Assembly (NCBI GenBank): GCA_964573805.1
Contig: CAZNKP010000028.1
Span: forward strand, 17,791 to 81,790
Length of the DNA stretch: 64,000 nt
Direction: 5' to 3'
Origin: an uncultured Desulfobacterales bacterium
GTDB taxonomy: Bacteria > Desulfobacterota > Dissulfuribacteria > Dissulfuribacterales > QOAL01
Numbering within the stretch: the first letter of the stretch is position 1; each line of letters begins with the position of its first letter. The translations under genes were made by a program, and so were the position numbers. Positions 6,915 through 39,571 of this stretch are shown here, piece by piece. Below the pieces are notes generated by a model. That model did not search any database. It was not told the origin of the DNA and was given only the letters and a program-made list of their open reading frames with translations.

Positions 6915-8663
6915 TCAGGCCTGTCCCTTCAACCGGTCTTCCAACACCTTAATACCCTGCTCCAGAATATTTGCCTTTTCTCTGGCCCCCATTCCTCTAA
7001 AAAGTTTCTCTGCCAACCTGTATGCATCAAGTGCCTCTTCTATCTTGCCCTGCCGTTCATAAACATCTGCAATACCAGCCAAGAATAAGGCAGAACGCTT
7101 AACATCACTCAAATTTTCTACAAGTTCCAAGGCCCTGAAATAGTAAGGCAAACACTTGTCATATTCCTTCAAATGTCTATATATATCGATCACCTTTTCC
7201 AACATGATGACAGCACTTATTGGATCGTTCTTTTTCTCACAGATAGCAAGCGTTCTTTGATAAGGAGAAAGGGCGGCCTTCATGTTTCCGCGCATTACAT
7301 GAAGGTCTCCAATTTTTTCACAGATATTTGCCACTTCAACATCATAACCTGCATTGTCAAACACGGTTAAAACTGCTTCAAACTTGGCAAGTGCGTCCAA
7401 AGACTGACCACGATTTTTTAATATATCGGCCTCCTGATATATACGCCTCGCCTCGATCACTTCTGGCGGCTCCTGTTTCTGAGTCTTAGTCTGAGCTTGA
7501 GCCTGTCTAAAATCCTTTTCTTTATTCTGTCCCTCGCGTTTAATATCTTTTTCTTCATTCATACGTTCAATAGCCTCTCTTGCAACCTTGCCAACTGTTG
7601 TTAATCGCAATCTATTGTTATCAAAAATCTGAAATTCTTCCGAATCGTCACACATCTTGGTAATGGCACTTAATGACTCCTTAGCTCGAATTTTCCCCAA
7701 GGCCCACACAGCATGACCCCTAACTGCAGGGTCATCCGAATCCAGCAAATCAAACATCACAAAAAATGAATTGGTACGAACCAGTCTTGGATGTAGCTCT
7801 CCTATCCTGCCAATAGCCCATAAAATTGCTGGCCGAGAAGGTGCATCACCAACAAGACCAAGTATATGCTGAACAAAAGAACCATATAGGTTGGGTTGAT
7901 TTCTTATTATTTCACCAACGGTCTCGATAGCTCCCCAATTCGCTGCTGCAGAATCGTTAGCCGAGTACAACAATCTCCTCAAAAGGTCTCCAACAGTGGA
8001 AGGGTCCTGATTACTGATGGCCGCTGCCACCTGACCCAATATTATCACAGCATTCCACCTAGATTCCAAATCCGCTGAATAAAGAAGCCTCTGTATTTTT
8101 CTAAGAACAAGTTTGTCTTCACAGGCCATTTTAGTCAAGGTTCCGATATCCTTGTTCTTTACAAACTGCGCCACCTCTTTTTTAGAATATCTCCTACCCT
8201 TAACTTTAGAGGTAGCAGAACTATGAATTTGCCGCGGTACGCCATTTACAGGAGACCCCTTTTCAAATCTAGCTCTCACACCTTCATGTTTCAGTTCCTG
8301 GAGATCCTCTTTGAGCTTGATAAAACTAAGAGCACCCCGAATCTTCTGGCCTTCAATATCATGCCCCTGAGGGAAAATTGCATGTCTATCAAAATCATAT
8401 CCTTCTATCAATGCGTCTATATAATCCTCACCTGGCAACAGGTTCCATGCCAAATCCCAGTCGTTATCGCATGCGAACCCTAAGGCTTCCACCATGGCCG
8501 CACCTAGATTGTGTCCAGTTACATCGTGTACAAATACGGCACCACATTCACATACACCAAAGTCAAAATCGCCCAGTCTTTTAGGCTCAACCTGTCTGGG
8601 CCTTGGAAGCCTCTGTGAACAAAAGGGACACTGTGGCTCTATCACACCTTTACAGATTGCCAT
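6915..8663 (-). CDS. Multidomain protein: N-terminal 4-Cys zinc-ribbon-like region, HEAT (PBS-lyase type) repeats, C-terminal TPR repeats
   Basis: 582 aa. CPFC...CEC at the N-terminus, HEAT-like repeats (DPAVRGHAVWALGKI, PAILWAIGRIGE), a charged linker, then TPR-like helices at the C-terminus. Confidence 0.6.
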   Translation of the reverse strand: MAICKGVIEPQCPFCSQRLPRPRQVEPKRLGDFDFGVCECGAVFVHDVTGHNLGAAMVEALGFACDNDWDLAWNLLPGEDYIDALIEGYDFDRHAIFPQGHDIEGQKIRGALSFIKLKEDLQELKHEGVRARFEKGSPVNGVPRQIHSSATSKVKGRRYSKKEVAQFVKNKDIGTLTKMACEDKLVLRKIQRLLYSADLESRWNAVIILGQVAAAISNQDPSTVGDLLRRLLYSANDSAAANWGAIETVGEIIRNQPNLYGSFVQHILGLVGDAPSRPAILWAIGRIGELHPRLVRTNSFFVMFDLLDSDDPAVRGHAVWALGKIRAKESLSAITKMCDDSEEFQIFDNNRLRLTTVGKVAREAIERMNEEKDIKREGQNKEKDFRQAQAQTKTQKQEPPEVIEARRIYQEADILKNRGQSLDALAKFEAVLTVFDNAGYDVEVANICEKIGDLHVMRGNMKAALSPYQRTLAICEKKNDPISAVIMLEKVIDIYRHLKEYDKCLPYYFRALELVENLSDVKRSALFLAGIADVYERQGKIEEALDAYRLAEKLFRGMGAREKANILEQGIKVLEDRLKGQA

Positions 8664-9308: not shown

Positions 9309-9429
9309 TTTTCCTCCTAGCTAAGGACACACGTGTAGATTTTCTTACTAAGAAGTGCCATAATCTAACATATACAACAAGGATTTACATAACAAATTGC
9401 ACATTATGCAGAGGAATTCAAAAAACGAT

Positions 9430-9600
9430 ATGATCCTTACTTGCAAATTTTGTGGGGGTCCGGCTGTAATTTGCGGTAGGTGAGCAAATGCTACTGTTAC
9501 CTGCAAGGATTGCGGGATGACCCTGCCGGCTAAACACTATACCAAAGAAATTGAAGAGATGAAGGAAAACCTTATCAAGTCCCTTGACACAGATAAATAA
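9430..9600 (+). CDS. Candidate small selenoprotein (CxxC / CxxU / CxxC), requires decoding of TGA 9481-9483 as Sec
   Basis: Reads MILTCKFCGGPAVICGR-TGA-ANATVTCKDCGMTLPAKHYTKEIEEMKENLIKSLDTDK-TAA. AGAGGA lies at 9410-9415, and in-frame ATG 9406 is an alternative start. The ORF ends inside terminator 9592-9626. A paralog with TGA at the same column is at 37955-38160. Confidence 0.45.
9496..9521 (+). promoter_or_regulatory. SECIS-like hairpin downstream of TGA 9481
   Basis: GUUACCUGCA / UGCGGG(A)UGAC forms a 10-bp stem with one bulged A and loop AGGAU. The loop starts 22 nt after the UGA and has G at its second position. Confidence 0.4.
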
Positions 9601-9626
9601 GGCGGCTTTAAGCCGCCTTATTTATC
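9592..9626. terminator. Bidirectional terminator shared by the mini-ORF (+) and dsrP (-)
   Basis: Roughly 15-bp perfect stem (GATAAATAAGGCGGC / GCCGCCTTATTTATC). The GC core is flanked by A/T-rich arms on both strands. Confidence 0.7.
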
Positions 9627-9635
9627 CTTAAATTT

Positions 9636-10796
9636 TCAAACCCTTGCCTGTTCTTCCCTGACAGAAATAGCTACCTTATAAAGTATTGTTACAATCAATC
9701 CGCCAACACCCCATATTGCAGCAGCTATAGTAATTTCAGGAAGCGTTGGATGATATTCAGTTATCGTTTCGAATGGGTTTGGAATAAATCCACCGATCAC
9801 TAATCCCACACCCTTGTCAATCCATGTTGCCAAAAATACCGATGCACAGGCCAGAGCCAGCCCCTTTGGATTGCGGCGTATCCTTGGCACTAGCAATAGA
9901 AACACTCCAAAAAGTCCGATGACTATAGCCGCCCTCATAAAGGGAACGAGATTACCATAACCATCAAGACCTGCGAAAAGATATTCTAAAGTATGCATAT
10001 GGCCAGGAATCTGGCTATAAAATGCTGTGAAAAATTCACACCCCATAAAAAACAAATTGGCAATCATTGCATAGCAGACGGTCTTTGCAATAGTCTGAAG
10101 CGCTTCATCACCTGGATCAAACTTGGTAACCTTTCTTACAAAAAGCAGTATCATGATGAGTAGTGCAGGACCTGCTGCAAAGGCCGAAGCAAGAAAACGA
10201 GGTGCCATAATCGCTGTCAACCAAAAATGCCTGCCTGGCAAACCAGCGTACAAGAATGCTGTAACCGTATGGATACTGATTGCCCATGGTATAGAAATAT
10301 AAATAAAGGGTTTTACCCAACCTGGACAGGGCACACCTTTCTTGTCTGCTAATAAGGTATTGTATCCACATATTATGTTGAGTAGCAGATATCCATTTAA
10401 TACTATCATGTCATAAAACAACATCGAATGAGGAGTTGGATGGATAACAACATTGAGCATGCGCATTGGTTGTCCAATATCTACTACAATAAACAGTAAA
10501 CACATGATCACAGCAGCTATTGCCAAAAACTCTCCGAATACAACTATTTTTGCATACTTGGAATAATGGTGGAGATACTTTGGAATCACCACCATGACAC
10601 CTCCTGCAGCCACACCAACAAAGTATGTGAACTGGGCAATATATACACCCCAGGAAATGTCACGACTCATACCTGTTATGCCAAGACCTATCTTGAGCTG
10701 ATAGATGTAGGCCATCATTCCTGCGCCTATAAGGCACAGGAGAAAAATAATCCAGCCCCAATAAACTGATGATCCTTTTAATGCCTTTTCAATCAT
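9636..10796 (-). CDS. dsrP: DsrP, NrfD/PsrC-family integral membrane quinone-interacting subunit
   Basis: 386 aa and highly hydrophobic (about 10 predicted TM helices). Last gene of the dsrMKJOP order. Confidence 0.88.
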   Translation of the reverse strand: MIEKALKGSSVYWGWIIFLLCLIGAGMMAYIYQLKIGLGITGMSRDISWGVYIAQFTYFVGVAAGGVMVVIPKYLHHYSKYAKIVVFGEFLAIAAVIMCLLFIVVDIGQPMRMLNVVIHPTPHSMLFYDMIVLNGYLLLNIICGYNTLLADKKGVPCPGWVKPFIYISIPWAISIHTVTAFLYAGLPGRHFWLTAIMAPRFLASAFAAGPALLIMILLFVRKVTKFDPGDEALQTIAKTVCYAMIANLFFMGCEFFTAFYSQIPGHMHTLEYLFAGLDGYGNLVPFMRAAIVIGLFGVFLLLVPRIRRNPKGLALACASVFLATWIDKGVGLVIGGFIPNPFETITEYHPTLPEITIAAAIWGVGGLIVTILYKVAISVREEQARV

Positions 10797-10808
10797 AATG
10801 CCCTCACA

Positions 10809-11624
10809 CTATATCAGATAGAAGACTGACGGTTTTGTCCCAAGCTCTAACTTGCGCCGAAGCGATATTCTCTCTTTGAGAATCTTGCGCACATTAGAGT
10901 TTGGATCAGCAAGATTACCAAAGAACATGACATCAGGAGCTGCCTCTACACATCCAGGCTGCTTACCCTCAGCCAGCCGCTCTACACAAAAATTGCATTT
11001 TTCTACAACTCCCCTCATTCTCGTTGGAAATCTCTTATTTAGTTTTCTTCCATGGGCCATTTCCTTTTCTAACTGGACCCTTGGATCAAGCCAATTAAAG
11101 CTTCTTGAACCATAAGGACAGGCGGCCATACAAAAACGGCAGCCAATACAGCGGTGGTAATCCTGGGCTACTATACCATCTGGCCTTTTAAAGGTGGCCT
11201 GCACCGGACACACTCTTACACATGGAGGATTGTCACAGTGGTTGCACATTAACAGGAAAGGCATACCTTCAAGGATATGATTATACTCATTGTAGCTGTC
11301 AGTAAAGACATGCTCGTATTCATCCTCCCAAACCCACTTGATGTCGTTTTTAGGATCATTCCAGTTAGGCACATTGTGGAGATGATGGCATGTATGAATA
11401 ATTTTCTCTGCCTTTTCCTTATTAAGGGCCATTACATCTATTAACATTGCCCAGCGAACCTTTGGCCCTGCCTCTTGGTTATGACCTTCATGGCCATGAG
11501 CCTCATGGGCCATCTCGGCCTCTACTGTCCCCGGCTTAAGCAGCTCAAAAATTCCCTTTCCTCCAAGACCAACCAGTGCAGTAACACCAGCGGCCTTTAA
11601 GAATTTCCTTCTATCCATGCTCAT
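10809..11624 (-). CDS. dsrO: DsrO, periplasmic 4Fe-4S ferredoxin-like subunit (Tat signal)
   Basis: Twin-arginine signal (MSMDRRKFLKAAG). Cys clusters CNHCDNPPCVRVCP, CIGCRFCMAACP and CNFC. ATG 11624 overlaps the dsrJ stop as ATGA; the track start at 11663 is probably too long. Confidence 0.88.
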   Translation of the reverse strand: MSMDRRKFLKAAGVTALVGLGGKGIFELLKPGTVEAEMAHEAHGHEGHNQEAGPKVRWAMLIDVMALNKEKAEKIIHTCHHLHNVPNWNDPKNDIKWVWEDEYEHVFTDSYNEYNHILEGMPFLLMCNHCDNPPCVRVCPVQATFKRPDGIVAQDYHRCIGCRFCMAACPYGSRSFNWLDPRVQLEKEMAHGRKLNKRFPTRMRGVVEKCNFCVERLAEGKQPGCVEAAPDVMFFGNLADPNSNVRKILKERISLRRKLELGTKPSVFYLI

Positions 11625-12019
11625 AGCTTGCTCCCGTTTGGATCGTAATGACAATCCCAGCAATAGGGTTCCACACCTGCATAGTTATGACACTTGTCAC
11701 AAAATTCCTTTTTATTGGAGTGACATTTCATACATGTATTCTGTAGACTGATCCAGATCTTTTTGCCTTCCCTATTCACATACCACCTGTTACCATCTCT
11801 AAGCGCCTGGTCACGCCAGTCGTTGAGAAACTGCATATGTGTCGTAATCATAAAATGCGTGTCCTCTACGCACTTCTTCTGTGCTAGGGCCCTTATGGCT
11901 GGTGTATCTAGATTCGGTTTGGGCTGTGGCGCAGCAGTACCTCGATTGTAAAGGAAGGGAAACAAAAAGATACACGCAAAGACTGCAAGACCTATTATGA
12001 CCTTCCCTGAATCATACAT
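11621..12019 (-). CDS. dsrJ: DsrJ, periplasmic triheme cytochrome c
   Basis: 132 aa with an N-terminal membrane anchor and three CxxCH heme motifs (CMKCH, CDKCH, CWDCH). Confidence 0.9.
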   Translation of the reverse strand: MYDSGKVIIGLAVFACIFLFPFLYNRGTAAPQPKPNLDTPAIRALAQKKCVEDTHFMITTHMQFLNDWRDQALRDGNRWYVNREGKKIWISLQNTCMKCHSNKKEFCDKCHNYAGVEPYCWDCHYDPNGSKL

Positions 12020-13646
12020 CTTCTGTTACCTCCTCACCTTCTGCCTTAGCAAAGCCAGGTATTTCTTCGCCTCGAAGGTCTGTGGGTCGATCATGTTCAC
12101 CCTCCATTATCAACGCATTGCCTACCAATTCAGATACCCCACAGACATTCACATCTGGCACCCAGTACTCCATAGAAGCCGGAAGCACAGCTCTGTCAAT
12201 AGCACAAACACACGAAAGCATATTTACACCAAAGCGCTCATGCACATATTTGACTGCGTTCGCCCTAGGAAGACCTCCCCTGAGTCTGAGTTCCATATTT
12301 TCTCCAGCGTTTAAACCTGCACCGCTTCCGCAACAAAATGTCTGCTCCCGTATAGTATTTTCAGGCATTTCATAGAAATTGTTACAAACATTCTTTATGA
12401 CATAACGGGGTTCCTCAAACATTCCCATACCACGAGATGGATTGCATGAATCGTGATAGGTAACCTTTAGATGATCGTTTCTTTTTGGATTAAGTTTCAA
12501 CTTGCCATGTTTTATGAGATCTGCGGTAAATTCGGATATATGAACCATCTTTGCCGACTTGGCATTTTCGAACTTGGTACCTGTCAATGGATTCACTGGC
12601 TCCTCCAAAAAATCAGGAGGACCATTAAAGGTGTTCATGTACTGATGAACCACACGCCACATATGTCCACATTCACCACCCAGGATCCATTTCACCCCAA
12701 GCCTCTTGGCCTCTGCATATATCTTGGCATTTAACCTTTGAGCCATCTCCAGAGATGTAAAGAATCCAAAATTTCCGCCCTCGCTGGCATAGGTACTCCA
12801 TGTATAATCAAGCCCTATATGCTCAAAAAGCAATAGATAACCCATAAGGGTATAGATTCCCGGATCAGCAAAAACGTCACCAGAAGGGGTAACAAAAAGG
12901 ATCTCGGCTCCCTTGCGATTAAATGGAGGCTCCACATTAATCCCGACAAATTCCTCAATATCCATACACATAAATTCTATATTTTGCTTGAATGTATGAG
13001 GAAGAAGACCGAGGTGGTTTCCTGTTTCATAACAGTTGGCCACAGGCTCTTGGATCCAATTGATATTTAAACCAAATAGATTTATAAGCTCACGGCCAAT
13101 GATGGTGACCTCTGCCGTATCTATTCCGTACGGACAAAAAAGAGAACATCTCCGACATTCGGTACATTGAAACATATAGTACCAAATTTCCTTCAAGACA
13201 TCCTCGGTAAGCTTTCTGCCTCCTGCGAGCCTTCCTAAAATCTGACCTGCCTTAGTAAACTCTCCCCTGTAAACGGACCTCAGAAGCTCTGCCCTTGCAA
13301 CAGGCATGTTTTTAGGATCTCCCGACCCCAAAAAGAAATGACATTTATCAGCACAGGCACCGCACCTAACACAGATATCCATAAAAATCTTAAAAGAACG
13401 ATGCTTGTCGAGCCTCTCTCTCATGCCCTGCAGGAAGGTCTCTTTCCAATCATCTGGCAGACCCCAGTCATCATCCAATGGACTCCAAACGTGCGGATTG
13501 GGCATTCCCACTATCTCTACCTTTTCTGGCTTAGCCGGATAACAATAAATTCCAGGCTTTATAACGGTAGGGATATCCATCCAGTCCTTATTAGGGGGAG
13601 TAAGGTCTATCCTCAACATTTCTTGGGGTGTTAGTTCTTTAGCCAT
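12012..13646 (-). CDS. dsrK: DsrK, HdrD-like catalytic iron-sulfur subunit
   Basis: Ferredoxin motifs CVRCGACADKC and CTECRRCSLFCP plus a CCG domain (FCCGSGAG). Overlaps the dsrJ start by 8 nt. Confidence 0.92.
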   Translation of the reverse strand: MAKELTPQEMLRIDLTPPNKDWMDIPTVIKPGIYCYPAKPEKVEIVGMPNPHVWSPLDDDWGLPDDWKETFLQGMRERLDKHRSFKIFMDICVRCGACADKCHFFLGSGDPKNMPVARAELLRSVYRGEFTKAGQILGRLAGGRKLTEDVLKEIWYYMFQCTECRRCSLFCPYGIDTAEVTIIGRELINLFGLNINWIQEPVANCYETGNHLGLLPHTFKQNIEFMCMDIEEFVGINVEPPFNRKGAEILFVTPSGDVFADPGIYTLMGYLLLFEHIGLDYTWSTYASEGGNFGFFTSLEMAQRLNAKIYAEAKRLGVKWILGGECGHMWRVVHQYMNTFNGPPDFLEEPVNPLTGTKFENAKSAKMVHISEFTADLIKHGKLKLNPKRNDHLKVTYHDSCNPSRGMGMFEEPRYVIKNVCNNFYEMPENTIREQTFCCGSGAGLNAGENMELRLRGGLPRANAVKYVHERFGVNMLSCVCAIDRAVLPASMEYWVPDVNVCGVSELVGNALIMEGEHDRPTDLRGEEIPGFAKAEGEEVTEDV

Positions 13647-13664
13647 GATACCTTTCCCTTTTGA

Positions 13665-14660
13665 TTATTCTCTCTCAAGTGGTAGTCCTGCTTCCTTCAT
13701 ATACTCTCTGTACATATCTTCATACTCTTCGTAGGAATGAAACTTGGGTGGTCGCCTCCAAGGATTCTCATGATAGGCCATCCTGTTTATGTTAGCCAAG
13801 TTCCTGGTAGGACTCATGAATACACCTCCCATATGCATGAGCTTACTAAAGGGGAAATATGCAAGGAGGGTGCATACCAAAGCCAAATGGACAAAGAATA
13901 TTGCGCCTATTCCCTTAGGAACAACGGGATGAAAACTTGCTATCCCAGTAGCCAAGGCCTTTACAGCAGTTATATCCACTCTAAAGACGAATCTCATAAG
14001 AAGACCGCTTATAACAATCCCCAATATTAGAAAGAGCGGAAAATAATCTGCAGCCAGGGATATAAATCTGACCTTTGGCAAACACAATCTTCTGATAAGC
14101 AACCCCGAGACGGCCAGCAAAATAATTATATCTGTAAGATAAAGCGGAGGGATGCCTATCTGGAACATTCCGTCAACTGCATCCAAGGTCTCAACAAAAC
14201 CGGGGATGGGATAAACAAATAGACGTAAATGCCGTAACGCAATAATAAGAAATGAATAATGAAAGCTTAAAGCAAGCAACCATAGCCACTTAGATGGAGA
14301 ATGAATAAGCCAACCAGAACGGAGATCCGTTCTCATATTCCTAAAGAGGGAACGAAAGAGGAACACCTCAAAAAACATCCTCAAAAGGACCCCTCCGGTT
14401 GTACTTGGATTTTCTATTTTGGACCACTTAATCCATGGCAATGAATACTCTTGGCCTGCCGTTGTAGGGATACGAAAGGGCACTGGAGACTTAGCCCAAT
14501 AGATTACCTTTGCTATAAAACCGAACAGAAAAACAGCAAAGGTAATATAGAGCAGAGCCACGCTAAACAAGGGCTGCAAAAAGGGAATAGATCCCCCTAC
14601 AAGAGCCACTGCCACAATTGCCAAGACTACTGCTAGTGGGAACAATATACGCGCTGCCAT
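13665..14660 (-). CDS. dsrM: DsrM, NarI-like membrane diheme cytochrome b
   Basis: 331 aa with 5-6 TM helices. First gene of the MKJOP order, directly after the dsrT-like gene. Confidence 0.88.
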   Translation of the reverse strand: MAARILFPLAVVLAIVAVALVGGSIPFLQPLFSVALLYITFAVFLFGFIAKVIYWAKSPVPFRIPTTAGQEYSLPWIKWSKIENPSTTGGVLLRMFFEVFLFRSLFRNMRTDLRSGWLIHSPSKWLWLLALSFHYSFLIIALRHLRLFVYPIPGFVETLDAVDGMFQIGIPPLYLTDIIILLAVSGLLIRRLCLPKVRFISLAADYFPLFLILGIVISGLLMRFVFRVDITAVKALATGIASFHPVVPKGIGAIFFVHLALVCTLLAYFPFSKLMHMGGVFMSPTRNLANINRMAYHENPWRRPPKFHSYEEYEDMYREYMKEAGLPLERE

Positions 14661-24940: not shown

Positions 24941-25126
24941 AAAAACCCCGCCGTGCCGTGCAGCTGAGTCTATTGAACCTGAGCGAACTCAGGTGGGTGT
25001 CATATCCGCTTCCAACGGAAAAGGCTGTTCTCCTTTTCCACTCTTCCACGGAGAAACGACTCCCTTGTACGGGGTGTTGGCTCAACAAACTTTCAGCTTG
25101 CCACGCACACAGCAGGGAATGCTTTA
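24941..25126 (-). ncRNA. ssrS: 6S RNA candidate
   Basis: About 186 nt directly downstream of zapA, the same synteny as E. coli zapA-ssrS. The 5' CCCUGCUGUGUGCGUGGCAAGCUGA pairs with the 3' UCAGCUGCACGGCACGGCGGGG over about 21 bp including G-U pairs and small bulges, closing a long irregular hairpin. Ends in GGGGUUUUU. Ends are approximate. Confidence 0.65.
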
Positions 25127-25143: not shown

Positions 25144-25437
25144 TCAATCTTTTTTTTTCATCAATTGTGTATCTAATTTTTCGTTAAGCGTTTTTAACTT
25201 TGAGTCAAGACTGGAGCTAAATCTGTCTAGACTCTTTTTTAGATAAAAATATTCCTTTCCGAGACTCATAGCGATAAGAACCATTTGCCTTGAAGGAGAC
25301 AATCCTGGATATCTATTTTCTATATCTGCCGCTTTTTTTTCCACATATGTAGCAACTTCTTGCAAATCAATATCTGGCTCATCGCCCATTAATTCATAGA
25401 TATGTCCAAGAAATTTTAATTTAAATTTTTGAGCCAC
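25144..25437 (-). CDS. zapA: Cell division protein ZapA
   Basis: 97 aa. The pattern of an N-terminal beta region followed by a helix (LKFLGHIYELMGDEP...YVEKKAADIENRYPGLSPSRQMVLIAMSL) is typical of ZapA. Confidence 0.8.
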   Translation of the reverse strand: MAQKFKLKFLGHIYELMGDEPDIDLQEVATYVEKKAADIENRYPGLSPSRQMVLIAMSLGKEYFYLKKSLDRFSSSLDSKLKTLNEKLDTQLMKKKD

Positions 25438-25452
25438 TATTCTATGAGTAGA

Positions 25453-25770
25453 TTAATCGGTATCTGCAAATTGAAAGTCACCCTCTGGTGACCCTGTCTC
25501 ACTGTCGATAAAATTGCCGCCTTGCCCTTCAACCTCCTGCCCCTCAGAAGAAATCCGGCCAAGTTTTTCAAGAATATGCTCTACACGCCTTCCCACCTCA
25601 GCCCTTTCATTTTCTAAGGTATTGAGCTTACCCTCCAAGTCGGAAATCCTTGCATCCTTTTCGTGGATTTGATTCAAAAGACCTTTTCTTTCTTCCTCAA
25701 GACGGATTATATATGAAATCAACTCATCTATTTTTTCTTCTAAAACAGATATGATAGCTATATCACTCAT
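25453..25770 (-). CDS. Coiled-coil protein, ZapB-like
   Basis: 105 aa with heptad-rich sequence (LEEKIDELISYIIRLEEERKGLLNQIHEKDARISDLEGKLNTLENE), immediately upstream of zapA. Confidence 0.5.
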   Translation of the reverse strand: MSDIAIISVLEEKIDELISYIIRLEEERKGLLNQIHEKDARISDLEGKLNTLENERAEVGRRVEHILEKLGRISSEGQEVEGQGGNFIDSETGSPEGDFQFADTD

Positions 25771-25810: not shown

Positions 25811-26788
25811 TTATTTATCTTTATTTTTTATTATTTTTGTATATGGAGCAATAATACTACCGTTTGGGATGTAACCATCTTCTATATAAGAAAACGAACC
25901 AATTGTAACGTTATCACCTATCGCTGTCTGTCCCTTCAAAACACAGCAATTACCAATGGTTACATCTTTGCCTACAGTTACCTCCTGTTCAACATATGTA
26001 GTATCAGGCATCATGAAAGTTACACCTCTGGCCATATGCCTACTACGCACCCTATTGAGCAATACCTTTTCGGCCGACACCAGCTGACTCCTGGAATTGA
26101 CTCCCATTGACTCTTCTTCTGAGGCCAAACCAAATGCACCTACCGAATAGCCTTTTTTTTTGGCAAGAGACACAATATCCGTAAGATAAAACTCGTTTTG
26201 GGCATTATTGCATCGCACCTCTTTAACCAGCTCAAACAATACTTGCCTGTCCGCTAAGTAGGTCCCAGTATTTATTTCTGTAACCCTGCGCTCCTGATCC
26301 GAAGCATCTTTTTCTTCTACTATCTTAGAAAAAACACCGTGCTCATCTCTAATAATGCGGCCATAACCAGTTGGATCTGTTAACACGGCAGACAAAATAG
26401 ACAACATATGTCCTGCCTCTTTATGGGCTTTTAAGAAAGCACTAAAGGTTGATTTTCTAAAAAGTGGGGTATCACCACAAACAATTAAAACATCACCGTT
26501 TTTAGCATTCACATACTCCTCTGCACATCTAACTGCATGTCCTGTACCTCTCTGTTCCTGCTGTACAACAAAATCGAGTCCCCATGAGCTGAATTCTTTC
26601 TTTACAAGTTCGCCCCCATGGCCAATAACTACAACTATCTTATCAATTTCAACAGCATACAAAAGATCAATTACATAAGACAATAGGGGCTTACCCAAAA
26701 GGGGATGCAAGACCTTCGGCAAAGCCGATTTCATTCTGGTACCCTTTCCTGCTGCTAATACAAGACCAATTACCTGACGATTTTTCAT
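25811..26788 (-). CDS. GlmU-like sugar-1-phosphate nucleotidyltransferase with a truncated left-handed beta-helix tail
   Basis: N-terminal LAAGKGTRM pyrophosphorylase signature and a GlmU-like core. Only about 85 aa of hexapeptide repeats follow, for 325 aa total against roughly 450 aa for the bifunctional GlmU I recall. Confidence 0.7.
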   Translation of the reverse strand: MKNRQVIGLVLAAGKGTRMKSALPKVLHPLLGKPLLSYVIDLLYAVEIDKIVVVIGHGGELVKKEFSSWGLDFVVQQEQRGTGHAVRCAEEYVNAKNGDVLIVCGDTPLFRKSTFSAFLKAHKEAGHMLSILSAVLTDPTGYGRIIRDEHGVFSKIVEEKDASDQERRVTEINTGTYLADRQVLFELVKEVRCNNAQNEFYLTDIVSLAKKKGYSVGAFGLASEEESMGVNSRSQLVSAEKVLLNRVRSRHMARGVTFMMPDTTYVEQEVTVGKDVTIGNCCVLKGQTAIGDNVTIGSFSYIEDGYIPNGSIIAPYTKIIKNKDK

Positions 26789-37684: not shown

Positions 37685-37891
37685 ATGCGTAAAAAGATTA
37701 CATCCCTGGTTTTGGCACTCTTCTTTACAGCGGGTCTGTCAGGTGTAAGCCTTGCTGCCAAGTGTAAAGGTGAAGTGGTGAAAAACGAAAATGGAGAGCT
37801 GGTAATAAAGCTCAAAGACGAATGCAAGGCAAAAGCAGGAGATTCTGTTAAGATCAAGGTCAAGAGCGCTGCCAAGGTTGAAGGCTGCTAA
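37685..37891 (+). CDS. Small secreted Lys/Cys-rich protein (signal peptide plus about 43-aa mature part)
   Basis: MRKKITSLVLALFFTAGLSGVSLAA signal followed by KCKGEVVKNENGELVIKLKDECKAKAGDSVKIKVKSAAKVEGC. AAAAGGAGGA SD. A terminator follows. Confidence 0.75.
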   Translation: MRKKITSLVLALFFTAGLSGVSLAAKCKGEVVKNENGELVIKLKDECKAKAGDSVKIKVKSAAKVEGC

Positions 37892-37924: not shown

Positions 37925-37950
37925 AGGGCTCTGCACAAGAGCCCTTTTTT
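37925..37950. terminator. Bidirectional terminator between the secreted mini-protein gene and the minus-strand mini-ORF
   Basis: AGGGCTCT gcaca AGAGCCCT followed by TTTTTT on plus. The minus-strand side is followed by AACTTTTAAA. Confidence 0.8.
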
Positions 37951-37954
37951 CATT

Positions 37955-38160
37955 TTATATTCTATCAACCCTGGTATAGGCCAACATGTTTGCCAGCTCG
38001 TCGCTCATTTCATTCGCATATTCCCCAATAGAAAACAGCTTTCCGCAGCCTTGACACCTCAAGGCAACAGACCTTCACCTTCTGCATATCTCGAGTGGGC
38101 TGCCACATACTCTACATTCTAGATCAACCGCCTGGTTATTTTCCCTTTGAAAATAAAACA
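37955..38160 (-). CDS. Second candidate small selenoprotein (paralog of 9430-9600), in-frame TGA 38075-38077, N-terminal part in a different frame
   Basis: From ATG 38107: MWRPLEICRR-TGA-RSVALRCQGCGKLFSIGEYANEMSDELANMLAYTRVDRI-TAA. The upstream frame from GTG 38160 reads MFYFQRENNQAVDLECRVCGA and joins after a -1 shift in the CCC run (38097-38099). The joined product aligns column for column with the 9430 ORF. Confidence 0.4.
38043..38070 (-). promoter_or_regulatory. SECIS-like hairpin downstream of TGA 38075-38077
   Basis: Minus strand reads CUGUU GCCUUGA GGUG UCAAGGC UGCGG. This gives a 7-bp perfect upper stem, loop GGUG starting 16 nt after the UGA, and a lower stem of 4 more pairs across one U-U mismatch. 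Confidence 0.45.
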
Positions 38161-38174
38161 CTTGCCCCCCTTAA

Positions 38175-39119
38175 TCAAATTGAAAAAGCATTTTTTATAC
38201 TATCTATATCAGCCTTGGTCTCTACGCTGAAAACTTGATAGTCATCTGCATCGATAGACTTTTTAATCAGATTAGAAAGTACCTTTTTCGGTCCTGCTTC
38301 AATAAAGATCCTCACCCCATCCCTGTACATATTATTCGCAATTTCGTACCACCTTACTGGCATACACATCTGCTGGGAAAGCAAACGTACTATCATAGCC
38401 GGATCCTCTTCAGGATTTGCACTTACATTACTATAGATGGGGATTGAAGGTCTTCCAAAGCTTACAGAAGAAAGTACTCTTGCAAACTCCTTTGCAGCTC
38501 CCTCCATCAAGGGACTATGATAAGCCCCAGAGACCCTTAGCATTATTGCCCTCTTTCCTAACGTCTTTACCTTTTCACACAAGCTTTTGACTAACGCCTT
38601 TTCGCCAGTTACTACTATCTGCTCTTTGGAGTTGTGATTTGCCATTGCCAAAACGCCCTTATGCTGTGAAAGCACACCATCAATAATCTCTTTCAATTCC
38701 TGTGCTTCAAGGCCAATGATAGCAGCCATAGAACCTGGTCTTCTCTGCGCAGCCGCTTCCATTACCCTGCCTCTCTCTTTGACAAGTCTCAAGCAATCTC
38801 TAAAATCAACAGCTCCGCATGCCCAAAGGGCTGGATATTCACCAAGGCTGTGACCAGCTACTGCATCAGGTTGTATCCCTTCTTCCATCAAGGCCTTGGC
38901 ACATATGATATCGATGGCTGTCAGACATGGCTGTAAATTTGCGGTCCTCGTAAGATCTTCCAAAGGGCCCTTAACACACAACTTCCTTATATCTATTCCA
39001 CACACATCCTCTGCCTTTTGTAACATAGGACTGGCAAACTCGTAGGCCTTCAAAAGATCAACGCCCATACCCACATATTGGGAACCTTGTCCGGGGAAAA
39101 GGAAGGCTATCTTGGACAT
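38175..39119 (-). CDS. fabD: Malonyl-CoA:ACP transacylase
   Basis: FPGQGSQYVGMG and active-site GHSLGEY. 314 aa. Confidence 0.93.
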   Translation of the reverse strand: MSKIAFLFPGQGSQYVGMGVDLLKAYEFASPMLQKAEDVCGIDIRKLCVKGPLEDLTRTANLQPCLTAIDIICAKALMEEGIQPDAVAGHSLGEYPALWACGAVDFRDCLRLVKERGRVMEAAAQRRPGSMAAIIGLEAQELKEIIDGVLSQHKGVLAMANHNSKEQIVVTGEKALVKSLCEKVKTLGKRAIMLRVSGAYHSPLMEGAAKEFARVLSSVSFGRPSIPIYSNVSANPEEDPAMIVRLLSQQMCMPVRWYEIANNMYRDGVRIFIEAGPKKVLSNLIKKSIDADDYQVFSVETKADIDSIKNAFSI

Positions 39120-39571
39120 TATTCCTCTACCTCCAGAATATCCTCATCCTCCTCATCCAAGATCTCTTCGTCCTTAATCTTCAGCTCTTCAACATATTGC
39201 TCGTAATCTTCCGGACTCATCAAATCATCCAGTTCTTCTGGCTGAACTATCTCCAACACCATTATCCATCCATCGTCATAGGGATCGTCATTTATGGCCT
39301 CTGGGGCATCCATAAGCATCTCATTTACCGTAAGAACCCGACCAGAAATAGGACAAAGGAGCTCTGTCACTTCGCCTATGGAGTTTTCCACTGTTGCAAA
39401 CACATCAGTCTCTACAAACTCGTCTCCAGGACTTGGCAGATCAATAGATCCCACGATCCCAATACGCTCCTGGCCATAATCAGTTATCCCTATTACGGCC
39501 TTTTCACTACTATCATCAGGTTTAACCCACATATGTTCCTCAGTGTAAAGGAGATCCTCAAGGATGATCAT
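39119..39571 (-). CDS. Glycine-cleavage H-fold protein lacking the lipoyl-lysine, with acidic C-terminal tail
   Basis: GcvH-like YTEEHMWV...GITDYGQE...PISGRVLTVNE...DPYDDGWI. The position of the ESVKA lipoylation motif reads ENSIGE with no Lys. The last 35 aa are Asp/Glu-rich. Confidence 0.7.
   Translation of the reverse strand: MIILEDLLYTEEHMWVKPDDSSEKAVIGITDYGQERIGIVGSIDLPSPGDEFVETDVFATVENSIGEVTELLCPISGRVLTVNEMLMDAPEAINDDPYDDGWIMVLEIVQPEELDDLMSPEDYEQYVEELKIKDEEILDEEDEDILEVEE

What the first reader, a model, noticed from the sequence alone, without database searches (positions are those of the whole stretch)
37955..38178. Second mini-ORF: same C-x-R-U TGA column, stronger SECIS-like hairpin, paralog of the 9430 ORF
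On the minus strand downstream of fabD, ATG 38107 opens MWRPLEICRR-TGA-RSVALRCQGCGKLFSIGEYANEMSDELANMLAYTRVDRI-TAA. It ends just before the bidirectional terminator at 37925-37950.

Sixteen nt after TGA 38075-38077, the loop GGUG is closed by a perfect 7-bp stem GCCUUGA/UCAAGGC. The stem extends by 4 more pairs across one U-U mismatch.

Alignment with the first locus:
- Locus 1: CKFCGGPAVICGRU ANATVT CKDCG MTLPAKH Y TKEIEEMKEN
- Locus 2: CRVCGAPLEICRRU RSVALR CQGCG KLFSIGE Y ANEMSDELAN

All spacings are identical. The conserved columns are C, C, G, P, I, C, R, U, C, C, G, Y, E and N. Both TGAs are preceded by an AGG codon.

Two diverged copies that keep the TGA, the downstream reading frame and a hairpin at SECIS distance are hard to explain except by Sec recoding. 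Together they define a small, apparently unannotated Cys/Sec-rich metal- or redox-protein family.
Basis: partly seen in the sequence, partly recalled or inferred. Interest (0 to 1): 0.8.

Follow-up and report, generated by a model that had tools for sequence, protein, structure and literature searches.

The report
Small zinc-ribbon selenoprotein gene (OS_HP3)
This is a real but uncalled 68-codon gene whose in-frame TGA almost certainly encodes selenocysteine; it belongs to a small zinc-ribbon selenoprotein family of unknown function that was predicted in 2007 and is already curated by NCBI, so it is genuine but not new.

Summary
The core observation holds. On the minus strand an ORF runs from GTG 38161 to TAA 37955, with an in-frame TGA at 38075-38077. 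Sixteen nt downstream is a 7-bp hairpin with a GGUG loop. A 28%-identical paralog lies at 9406-9600 (+).

Sec recoding is strongly supported:
- All 17 distinct homologs recovered keep the TGA and the frame on both sides of it.
- The post-TGA part is under purifying selection.
- The hairpin covaries at synonymous sites and meets the published bacterial SECIS consensus.
- Six 55-aa homologs carry Cys where this gene has TGA. The one Cys-form locus examined has no such hairpin.

The family is not new. Both copies reach the cutoff of NCBIfam NF041197, "dual CXXC motif small (seleno)protein". This is OS_HP3 of Zhang and Gladyshev (2007) and probably "hypothetical protein DW" (2025).

Function is unknown. 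The best model is a Zn(Cys)4 ribbon with the Sec on the hairpin tip between the two knuckles.

Incremental points: 8 of 13 type-2 copies sit directly after gcvH-like and fabD, and the paralog abuts dsrMKJOP. Sec machinery could not be checked in 64 kb.

The parts
37955..38161 (-). Type-2 OS_HP3 / NF041197 selenoprotein gene: GTG start 38161-38159, Sec codon TGA 38077-38075, stop TAA 37957-37955. It encodes 68 aa including U29.
   Evidence: Translation. NF041197 score 58.4 bits against a cutoff of 40. Twelve further distinct homologs have the same frame and the same TGA. The start position is conserved as GTG or ATG in homologs.
38165..38172 (-). Shine-Dalgarno-like AAGGGGGG, 3 nt upstream of the GTG start
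   Evidence: Read directly from the sequence. The ortholog L002 has GGAGG at the same place.
38075..38077 (-). In-frame UGA read as selenocysteine (U29) in the motif C26-R-R-U29
   Evidence: TGA is kept in all 13 type-2 and 4 type-1 sequences. Cys (TGT in L147) occupies this column in six 55-aa homologs.
38042..38071 (-). SECIS-like hairpin: lower stem 38071-38067 with 38046-38042, upper 7-bp stem 38065-38059 with 38054-38048, loop GGUG 38058-38055 starting 16 nt after the UGA
   Evidence: Folding. Across 13 sequences 87% of cells are paired, there are compensatory changes at 3 upper-stem pairs, and 0 of 500 shuffles reach the observed covariation score. It meets the bSECIS consensus quoted in PMC13188914.
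37925..37945 (.). G+C-rich terminator-like hairpin between this gene and the convergent ExtJ-like gene
   Evidence: Terminator scan. A and T runs flank the hairpin on both sides.
38175..39119 (-). fabD (ACP S-malonyltransferase), ending 13 nt upstream of the selenoprotein start; probably the same transcript
   Evidence: TIGR00128 score 293.8 bits against a cutoff of 260.9. No sigma-70-like site lies in the gap. The fabD-to-gene adjacency is kept in 8 of 13 type-2 loci, with gaps of about 13-47 nt.
39119..39571 (-). GcvH-family gene directly upstream of fabD; part of the conserved gcvH-like-fabD-selenoprotein arrangement
   Evidence: NF002270 score 119.2 bits against a cutoff of 117. It is conserved upstream of fabD in the same 8 loci.
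9406..9600 (+). Type-1 paralog: ATG 9406, Sec codon TGA 9481-9483 in the motif C-G-R-U, stop TAA 9598-9600; 64 aa. The start is less certain, since ATG 9430 is an alternative.
   Evidence: Sequence. NF041197 score 40.1 bits against a cutoff of 40. Three metagenomic orthologs keep the TGA.
9496..9521 (+). SECIS-like hairpin of the paralog: 11 pairs with one bulge, loop GGA 9507-9509, 23 nt after the UGA
   Evidence: Folding. The stem is largely built from the conserved Cys-x-x-Cys-Gly codons, so its conservation is weaker evidence than for the type-2 hairpin.
9592..9626 (.). 16-bp terminator-like hairpin shared with the convergent dsrP gene
   Evidence: Terminator scan.

Best explanation
Window 37955-38161 (-) is a genuine protein-coding gene for a 68-residue selenoprotein of the OS_HP3 / NCBIfam NF041197 family, 'dual CXXC motif small (seleno)protein'.

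Shown here:
- The reading frame is continuous across UGA 38075-38077.
- Both halves are conserved as protein in every homolog recovered.
- A hairpin with a GGUG loop 16 nt after the UGA is kept by compensatory changes.
- Homologs exist with Cys in place of the UGA.

Inferred from the standard bacterial mechanism:
- During translation the hairpin in the mRNA is bound by SelB-GTP-Sec-tRNA(Sec).
- This delivers selenocysteine to the UGA instead of release factor 2.
- The gene is probably co-transcribed with gcvH-like and fabD and ends at the terminator at 37925-37945.

Protein model, inferred:
- C16xxC19 and C36xxC39 form a Zn(Cys)4 zinc ribbon.
- The beta-hairpin between the two knuckles displays C26-x-x-U29 at its tip.
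- There the selenol acts as a redox-active group (selenenylsulfide with C26) or as a chalcogen or metal-binding group towards an unknown partner.
- An acidic C-terminal helix follows.

The copy at 9406-9600 (+) is a diverged paralog (C-G-R-U) that works the same way.
For: Family membership:
- NF041197 hits of 58.4 and 40.1 bits against a cutoff of 40.
- The review PMC13188914 maps NF041197 to OS_HP3 and to 'hypothetical protein DW'. The original prediction is in PMC1976440.

Conservation of the TGA and the frame:
- Thirteen distinct type-2 and four type-1 sequences from genomes and metagenomes all carry TGA at the same column, with no indel between the halves.
- Purifying selection acts after the TGA. 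For window versus L129, pS is about 0.65 and pN about 0.01. Pooled pN/pS is 0.26 before and 0.40 after the TGA.

Hairpin:
- The upper-stem pair at columns 22-33 is C:G in 8 sequences and U:A in 5, with no broken pair. These are two synonymous third- and first-codon positions. There are further double changes at columns 20-35 and 24-31. No shuffle of 500 reaches the observed score, and slid controls fall to 33-53% paired.
- In 11 of 13 sequences the loop GGUG starts at +16. In L132 it is GGU at +16 and in L027 it is CGGUGC at +15. Energies range from -13 to -25 kcal/mol.
- All four bSECIS criteria are met.

Sec/Cys pair:
- P0018 and P0034-P0038 have Cys at the U column.
- The Cys-form locus L147 lacks the hairpin and folds at only -6.1 kcal/mol.

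Genetic code:
- TGA is an ordinary stop for 11 of 47 long ORFs in the window, including fabD, so this is not a variant code.

Zinc-ribbon scaffold:
- The four outer Cys are invariant in all 16 aligned sequences.
- P0029 lacks both C26 and U29 but keeps the outer four.
- The AF2 model of Cys form P0036 has pLDDT 80. It shows strands at 9-14 and 19-23, with Cys16 (the Sec equivalent) in the turn.
- Foldseek and PDB profile searches return only zinc ribbons.
Against: - No tRNA-Sec, selA, selB or selD was seen in the window or in 21 family loci. This is uninformative for 64 kb, but Sec competence of this organism remains unproven.
- No Rfam family matches the hairpin.
- The 16-nt spacing lies at the lower limit of the consensus.
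- No member of the family has experimental proof of Se incorporation in the papers read.
- The zinc-ribbon fold matches are all statistically weak (E > 0.1).
- The Cys forms lack the -3 Cys, so a CxxU selenenylsulfide cannot be the universal chemistry of the family.
- The pS and pN values come from a home-made Nei-Gojobori count on short segments. Some pS values exceed 1, so they are only rough.
Confidence: 0.9

Rival explanations
1. UGA 38075-38077 is a true stop. The locus then encodes a 28-aa peptide and, separately, a roughly 35-aa peptide started at an internal TTG or GTG, or it is a decaying pseudogene. The hairpin would be an unrelated mRNA structure.
For: Gene callers treat it this way. 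Nothing was called in the Logan contig. Only the C-terminal 37-aa piece (P0001) was called in GCA_027068235.1 and in an ENA assembly. P0011 and P0031 are similar called fragments. TGA is a normal stop elsewhere in the window.
Against: - Seventeen distinct sequences keep the two halves in the same frame with identical spacing and no indel. The six codons between the TGA and the next Cys are conserved as protein.
- Full-length homologs with Cys at that column exist as single 55-aa proteins.
- The hairpin co-occurs with TGA and is absent from the Cys form.
- The internal start codons used by the gene callers are not conserved.
- A pseudogene would not show pN far below pS on both sides.
Confidence: 0.04
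2. The UGA is read through, but not as Sec. This would be near-cognate suppression giving Cys or Trp, or ribosome pausing at the hairpin, in an organism without a Sec system.
For: Sec machinery was not found in the sequence available. The hairpin has no Rfam match.
Against: - The hairpin satisfies all four published bSECIS criteria, including G-G at the start of a 4-nt loop.
- The column is a Sec/Cys pair, which is the standard signature of selenoproteins.
- Named members come from Desulfobacterales/Deltaproteobacteria MAGs. The literature places OS_HP3 and DW in Desulfosarcina and in Olavius delta-symbionts, which carry 15-38 or more selenoproteins.
- The window itself carries dsrMKJOP, which marks it as a sulfate reducer.
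Confidence: 0.04
3. Alternative for the protein's chemistry. All six Cys/Sec (three CxxC-like knuckles spaced by 6 residues) jointly bind metal, for example two metal ions or a small Fe-S or rubredoxin-like centre with a Se ligand. On this view there is no Zn ribbon carrying a free redox-active selenol.
For: The spacing is regular: C-x2-C-x6-C-x2-U-x6-C-x2-C. There are weak profile hits to metal-binding ribbons such as HypA, LysW and rubrerythrin-like domains.
Against: - P0029 lacks both central residues, and the six Cys forms lack C26, yet all keep the outer four Cys. The central pair is therefore dispensable for the fold.
- The AF2 model of the Cys form places the Sec-equivalent Cys in the hairpin turn between strands 9-14 and 19-23.
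Confidence: 0.2

Closest known systems
OS_HP3 (Olavius symbiont hypothetical protein 3; Zhang & Gladyshev 2007, PMC1976440) = NCBIfam NF041197 'dual CXXC motif small (seleno)protein', motif listed as RxU
   Same: The HMM score is above the curated cutoff (58.4 against 40 bits). The size is the same, there are two CxxCG knuckles, and the motif is C-R-R-U. A SECIS-like hairpin lies directly after the UGA. The hosts are deltaproteobacterial sulfate reducers. It works the same way and is a member of this family.
   Different: Nothing essential differs. This copy is simply not called in the assemblies seen. The 2007 paper knew of no Cys homologs, whereas six were found here.
'Hypothetical protein DW' (deep-Sep, PMC12013277; listed under NF041197 with motif GxU in PMC13188914)
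   Same: The window's paralog at 9406-9600 has C-G-R-U, which matches GxU, and only just reaches the NF041197 cutoff (40.1 bits). Desulfosarcina widdelii is reported to carry both OS_HP3 and DW, as this window carries both types.
   Different: The equation of type 1 with DW rests only on the motif string and the shared HMM. The DW sequence itself could not be fetched and aligned.
Generic zinc ribbons (aIF2-beta C-terminal ribbon 1k81, eS27, RPC10/RPB12, LysW, ZifS 8yoz; Lar family PF14354/TIGR03655)
   Same: There are two CxxC knuckles about 16 residues apart flanking a beta-hairpin. These are the best fold and profile matches.
   Different: All scores are below family cutoffs or not significant. 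None of these carries a Cys/Sec on the hairpin tip or the acidic C-terminal helix with the conserved Y48, E51 and D66. The protein is not a member of any of these families.
MsrB1/SelR-type arrangement (structural Zn(Cys)4 from two CxxC motifs plus a catalytic Sec); recalled from general knowledge, not tested here
   Same: It is a conceptual analogue: a structural zinc site built from two CxxC motifs supports a separate reactive Sec/Cys.
   Different: There is no sequence or fold relationship. MsrB is about 130 aa with a different fold. This is only a lead for the chemistry.

Membership tests
NCBIfam NF041197 / OS_HP3 dual CXXC motif small (seleno)protein | Whole-protein HMM score at or above the curated cutoff (40 bits) | tested here: met
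   Locus 2 scores 58.4 bits (E = 5.7e-16). Locus 1 scores 40.1 bits (E = 3e-10), which is borderline. Both were scored with U written as C.
NCBIfam NF041197 / OS_HP3 dual CXXC motif small (seleno)protein | Two CxxC(G) motifs flanking a Sec/Cys column in a protein of about 55-70 aa | tested here: met
   C16xxC19G, U29 and C36xxC39G in a 68-aa protein. The four Cys and two Gly are invariant in 16 aligned sequences.
NCBIfam NF041197 / OS_HP3 dual CXXC motif small (seleno)protein | TGA at the Sec column conserved in homologs, and Cys in others (a Sec/Cys pair) | tested here: met
   TGA in 17 distinct sequences. Cys in P0018 and P0034-P0038.
Bacterial SECIS consensus (model quoted in PMC13188914) | Apical loop of 3-9 nt on an upper stem of 4-16 bp | tested here: met
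   4-nt loop GGUG on a 7-bp stem. The paralog has a 3-nt loop GGA on a 7-bp upper stem plus 4 further pairs.
Bacterial SECIS consensus (model quoted in PMC13188914) | A G in the first two loop positions, usually followed by G or U | tested here: met
   The loop begins G-G in both loci. GGUG is invariant across 13 type-2 sequences (alignment columns 26-29).
Bacterial SECIS consensus (model quoted in PMC13188914) | 16-37 nt between the UGA and the apical loop; MFE of -7.5 kcal/mol or lower | tested here: met
   16 nt, which is the lower limit, and -17.3 kcal/mol for the 40 nt after the UGA. The paralog has 23 nt and -12.3 kcal/mol.
Bacterial SECIS consensus (model quoted in PMC13188914) | Structure maintained by selection (covariation) | tested here: met
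   Compensatory changes at 3 of 7 upper-stem pairs, 87% of cells paired, and 0 of 500 shuffles reach the observed score. The type-1 hairpin has too few sequences and is built from conserved codons, so it is not informative.
Bona fide selenoprotein | Sec machinery (selA, selB, selC, selD) in the same genome | tested here: inconclusive
   None was found in the 64-kb window or in 21 related loci. The rest of the genome is not available.
Bona fide selenoprotein | Selenium incorporation shown by 75Se labelling or mass spectrometry | not testable with these tools
   This needs an experiment. None was reported for this family in the papers read.
Zinc ribbon fold | Two Cys knuckles flanking a beta-hairpin, with fold similarity to solved ribbons | tested here: inconclusive
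   The AF2 model of Cys form P0036 has pLDDT 79.9 and shows the hairpin. The Foldseek top hits are all zinc ribbons, but the best E-value is 0.15. The best PDB profile hit has E = 0.003.
Lar restriction-alleviation family (PF14354 / TIGR03655) | Score at or above the curated cutoff | tested here: not met
   Locus 1 scores 27.8 against 28.6 (Pfam) and 20.9 against 39.6 (TIGR). Locus 2 scores 14.0.

The most novel reading that the evidence does not exclude
The two paralogs may be dedicated partners of the modules they are fixed next to. Type 2 would be the last gene of a gcvH-like-fabD operon. This adjacency is kept in 8 of 13 loci while the downstream neighbours change. Type 1 lies at the end of dsrMKJOP in 4 of 4 loci. 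On this reading the zinc-ribbon selenol acts as a sulfur or selenium relay, or as a redox switch, linking lipoyl-like carrier and acyl-transfer chemistry, or DsrMKJOP electron transfer, to the cell's redox state. That would be a function not yet assigned to any selenoprotein.
Probability: 0.1. Interest if true: 0.55.

Novelty: new member of a known kind. Interest (0 to 1): 0.27.

Why it matters
- It shows that gene callers still miss or truncate small selenoprotein genes. In these assemblies they found nothing, or only the 37-aa tail.
- It gives a clean, well-controlled example of Sec recoding: covarying SECIS, a Sec/Cys pair, and a Cys form without the hairpin.
- For the family itself it adds a working structural model (Zn ribbon with the Sec on the hairpin tip), Cys forms and a Cys-less form that define which residues are scaffold, and two conserved gene neighbourhoods that could guide a first functional experiment.
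- It does not change what is known about selenoproteins.

Tried and rejected
- **Rfam.** Neither gathering thresholds on the whole window nor an E-value of 10 or less on 37940-38180 gave a SECIS family match. Bacterial SECIS elements are poorly covered, so this is not counted as evidence against.
- **Word-indexed protein searches.** Searches with the U-to-C protein and with a 6-sequence profile found only the C-terminal fragment P0001. The Cys forms appeared only after the exhaustive HMMER scan with the post-TGA half and a wider profile.
- **Genome pattern scan.** My first genome contigs pattern allowed TGH at the Sec column and did not require Arg. The taxonomic spread and the true Sec:Cys ratio therefore could not be measured.
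- Only a Cys-form homolog was modelled.
Instead of a covariance model of the two hairpins, I scanned the six-frame translation with TGA read as C, using the family HMM. There are exactly two copies in the window.
- **Other split genes.** I looked for other TGA-split ORFs in the window and found none convincing.
- **ExtJ link.** The convergent ExtJ-like gene ('selenite/tellurite reduction operon protein') was considered as a functional link to selenium. It was rejected because the neighbour is kept only in the closest relatives.
- **Membership elsewhere.** Membership of Lar and of other zinc-ribbon families was rejected on score.
- **ZifS.** The literature search for ZifS, the top fold hit, returned only unrelated 'ZIF' materials papers.
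- **Substitution rates.** The Nei-Gojobori figures are from my own script on 15- and 39-codon segments. Some pS values exceed 1, so only the direction (pN far below pS) is used.
Full report
**What is in the sequence**

Read on the minus strand, the stretch after fabD (stop TGA 38177-38175) contains these elements in order:
- AAGGGGGG at 38172-38165
- GTG at 38161-38159
- 27 sense codons
- TGA at 38077-38075
- 39 sense codons
- TAA at 37957-37955

The product is (M)FYFQRENNQAVDLECRVCGSPLEICRR-U-RSVALRCQGCGKLFSIGEYANEMSDELANMLAYTRVDRI.

The N-terminal reading 'MWRPLEICRR' is therefore wrong. The residue after CG is Ser, not Ala.
- AGG precedes the TGA.
- The loop GGUG (38058-38055) is closed by GCCUUGA/UCAAGGC, 16 nt after the UGA.
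- Five more pairs follow across a U-U mismatch.
- A terminator-like hairpin lies at 37925-37945.
- The 63-nt segment folds at -20.4 kcal/mol, z = -2.9, and 1 of 200 shuffles folds as well.

The paralog lies on the plus strand: ATG 9406, TGA 9481-9483, TAA 9598-9600. It encodes MQRNSKNDMILTCKFCGGPAVICGR-U-ANATVTCKDCGMTLPAKHYTKEIEEMKENLIKSLDTDK. The two align without gaps at 28% identity, with E = 1e-12 for the single comparison when U is written as C.

**Identity**

With U written as C, both proteins match NCBIfam NF041197 (CxxC_Se_CxxC, 'dual CXXC motif small (seleno)protein', an equivalog model). The scores are 58.4 and 40.1 bits against a curated cutoff of 40. Pfam gives only sub-threshold zinc-ribbon hits.

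A 2026 review lists NF041197 twice:
- 'Hypothetical protein DW', motif GxU

OS_HP3 was predicted in 2007 from the Olavius algarvensis delta-symbiont metagenome. Two Sec members and no Cys homolog were known then, and a SECIS figure was given. DW was predicted in 2025 in Desulfosarcina sp. BuS5 and D. widdelii. The same paper notes an OS_HP3 gene in D. widdelii that its predictor missed.

The window's C-R-R-U copy fits RxU and its C-G-R-U copy fits GxU. I infer that the two paralogs correspond to these two published entries. The published sequences themselves could not be aligned.

**Independent test of recoding**

A DNA pattern for the Cys/Sec spacing was scanned over genomes and metagenomes. 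The hits were filtered with a family HMM. This gave:
- 13 distinct type-2 sequences: the window, L002/L003/L139, L016 (Desulfobacterales MAG), L027 (Deltaproteobacteria UBA5754), L103/L141, L124, L128, L129, L132/L137, L136, L143, L144 and L146
- 4 type-1 sequences: the window, L125, L130 and L131

L125 and L129 lie on one contig, so a relative also carries both types.

Every recovered member keeps the TGA, the frame and the spacing. This counts as independent evidence only for L016, L027 and L103. Those came from the genome scan, which allowed TGA, TGC or TGT at that column and recovered no Cys-form member. The metagenome pattern required TGA, so the TGA in those hits is by construction. Start codons (GTG or ATG) align at the same position.

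Against the nearest relative L129, the post-TGA part has about 0.65 synonymous but only 0.01 non-synonymous differences per site. Pooled over all pairs, pN/pS is 0.26 before and 0.40 after the TGA. This is a rough Nei-Gojobori count.

TGA ends 11 of 47 long ORFs in the window, including fabD, so the standard genetic code applies.

**The hairpin**

- In the 13 type-2 sequences the loop GGUG is invariant.
- The 12-pair structure is 87% paired.
- The upper stem has double changes at three pairs. Columns 22-33 are C:G in 8 sequences and U:A in 5, with none broken. These are the first base of a Leu codon and the third base of a Gln/Lys codon, which are mostly synonymous positions. Columns 20-35 and 24-31 also show double changes.
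- No shuffle of 500 reaches the observed covariation score. Sliding the partner columns drops pairing to 33-53%.
- Hairpin-only energies are -13 to -25 kcal/mol. The loop starts at +15 or +16 in 12 of 13 minimum-energy folds.
- The structure meets all four criteria of the published bacterial SECIS consensus: loop of 3-9 nt, stem of 4-16 bp, G in the first two loop positions followed by G or U, spacing of 16-37 nt, and MFE of -7.5 kcal/mol or lower.
- The type-1 hairpin (loop GGA at +23) also meets them. It is built from the conserved C-x-x-C-G codons, so its conservation says little.

**Sec/Cys pair and scaffold**

An exhaustive HMMER scan with the post-TGA half, followed by a wider profile search, found six 55-aa proteins: P0018 and P0034-P0038, of the form 'MKCKKCGG.IKLVIGCR...L.C..CG...'. 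In these a Cys aligns with U29. The Cys three residues earlier is Val. A further Cys often appears near the C-terminus. One 58-aa protein (P0029) has neither C26 nor U29.

In the Cys-form locus L147 the codon is TGT. The downstream RNA folds at only -6.1 kcal/mol and has no such hairpin.

The four outer Cys and the two Gly are invariant in all 16 aligned sequences. AlphaFold2 on Cys form P0036 gives pLDDT 79.9. It shows strands at 9-14 and 19-23, with the Sec-equivalent Cys16 in the connecting turn, followed by short helices. Foldseek against the PDB and a PDB profile search return only zinc ribbons, all weakly: ZifS, RPC10, topoisomerase I ribbons, aIF2-beta, eS27 and LysW.

My model is therefore a Zn(Cys)4 ribbon that presents Sec, with C26 in the Sec forms, on the hairpin tip. 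The chemistry of that site is inference. It could be redox-active, a sulfur or selenium carrier, or a metal ligand.

**Context**

The window comes from a sulfate reducer. A complete dsrMKJOP operon lies at 9636-14660 (-), and the type-1 gene converges on its dsrP end.

The type-2 gene follows murA-moaA-gcvH-like-fabD on the same strand, 13 nt after fabD, with no promoter-like site in between. The gcvH-like-fabD-selenoprotein order is kept in 8 of 13 type-2 loci, with gaps of about 13-47 nt. The downstream neighbours differ: ExtJ-like plus a histidine kinase in the window's clade, and a conserved 515-aa ORF on the opposite strand, not identified here, in L124, L143 and L144. L027, L103 and L132 have transporters upstream instead. 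In L002 a HepT/nucleotidyltransferase toxin-antitoxin pair sits upstream.

All four type-1 loci share the arrangement of DVU0298-family gene, TPR gene, selenoprotein gene and dsrP. They may simply be close relatives.

**What could not be settled**

- No tRNA-Sec or sel gene is in the window or in the fetched loci.
- The Sec form could not be modelled.
- The capped genome scan prevents a census of the family.

**Verdict**

This is a real selenocysteine-encoding gene with a well-supported SECIS. It is a new, uncalled member of a family that is already described and curated, and whose function remains unknown. Interest is modest.

Noticed in passing
window 9636-14660 (-): A complete dsrMKJOP operon, with every subunit far above its NCBIfam cutoff: DsrM 13665-14660, DsrK 12012-13646, DsrJ 11621-12019, DsrO 10809-11663 and DsrP 9636-10796. 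The type-1 selenoprotein gene converges on dsrP and shares a 16-bp terminator hairpin (9592-9626). The same arrangement is seen in L125, L130 and L131.
   Followed up: partly
window 37685-37891 (+): A 68-aa secreted Cys-containing protein matches NF040942, 'selenite/tellurite reduction operon protein ExtJ' (55.0 bits against a cutoff of 52.5). It is convergent with the selenoprotein gene and shares its terminator. The neighbour is kept only in the closest relatives (L002, L128, L129, L136), so no functional link is claimed.
   Followed up: yes
window 39119-39571 (-): A GcvH-family protein that only just passes NF002270 (119.2 against 117) and fails TIGR00527. It has a long acidic C-terminal tail. 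Read against the E. coli ESVKA motif (recalled from memory), the lipoyl-lysine position appears to be Gly (VENSIG). It may therefore be a non-lipoylated H-protein paralog. It always precedes fabD in the 8 syntenic loci.
   Followed up: no
window 24941-25121 (-): 6S RNA (Rfam RF00013, 74.5 bits). It lies downstream of two small coiled-coil ORFs (25453-25770 and 25144-25437). From memory, this resembles the zapB/zapA-ssrS arrangement known in other bacteria.
   Followed up: no
window 25811-26788 (-): A GlmU-like protein of only 325 aa. It matches positions 3-306 of the 447-position GlmU model and scores below the cutoff. Most of the C-terminal acetyltransferase repeat region is missing, and no in-frame TGA continuation was found.
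   Followed up: partly
L002 174-816 (+), ENA ERZ27262658 k141_466424: In this close relative a nucleotidyltransferase/HepT toxin-antitoxin pair lies upstream of the selenoprotein gene, where the window has fabD. The downstream synteny (ExtJ-like gene, histidine kinase, TatD, Maf) is intact.
   Followed up: no
L147 2629-3952 (+), JGI Ga0210050_1000315: The Cys-form homolog (55 aa) is followed on the same strand by a 350-aa multihaem cytochrome c-like gene. It is preceded divergently by DUF3786 and radical-SAM genes. This context differs from that of either Sec form.
   Followed up: no
window 6915-8663 (-): A 582-aa protein with a DVU0298-family domain (169.7 bits) and a TPR-rich C-terminus. It is conserved upstream of the type-1 selenoprotein gene in all four type-1 loci.
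   Followed up: no
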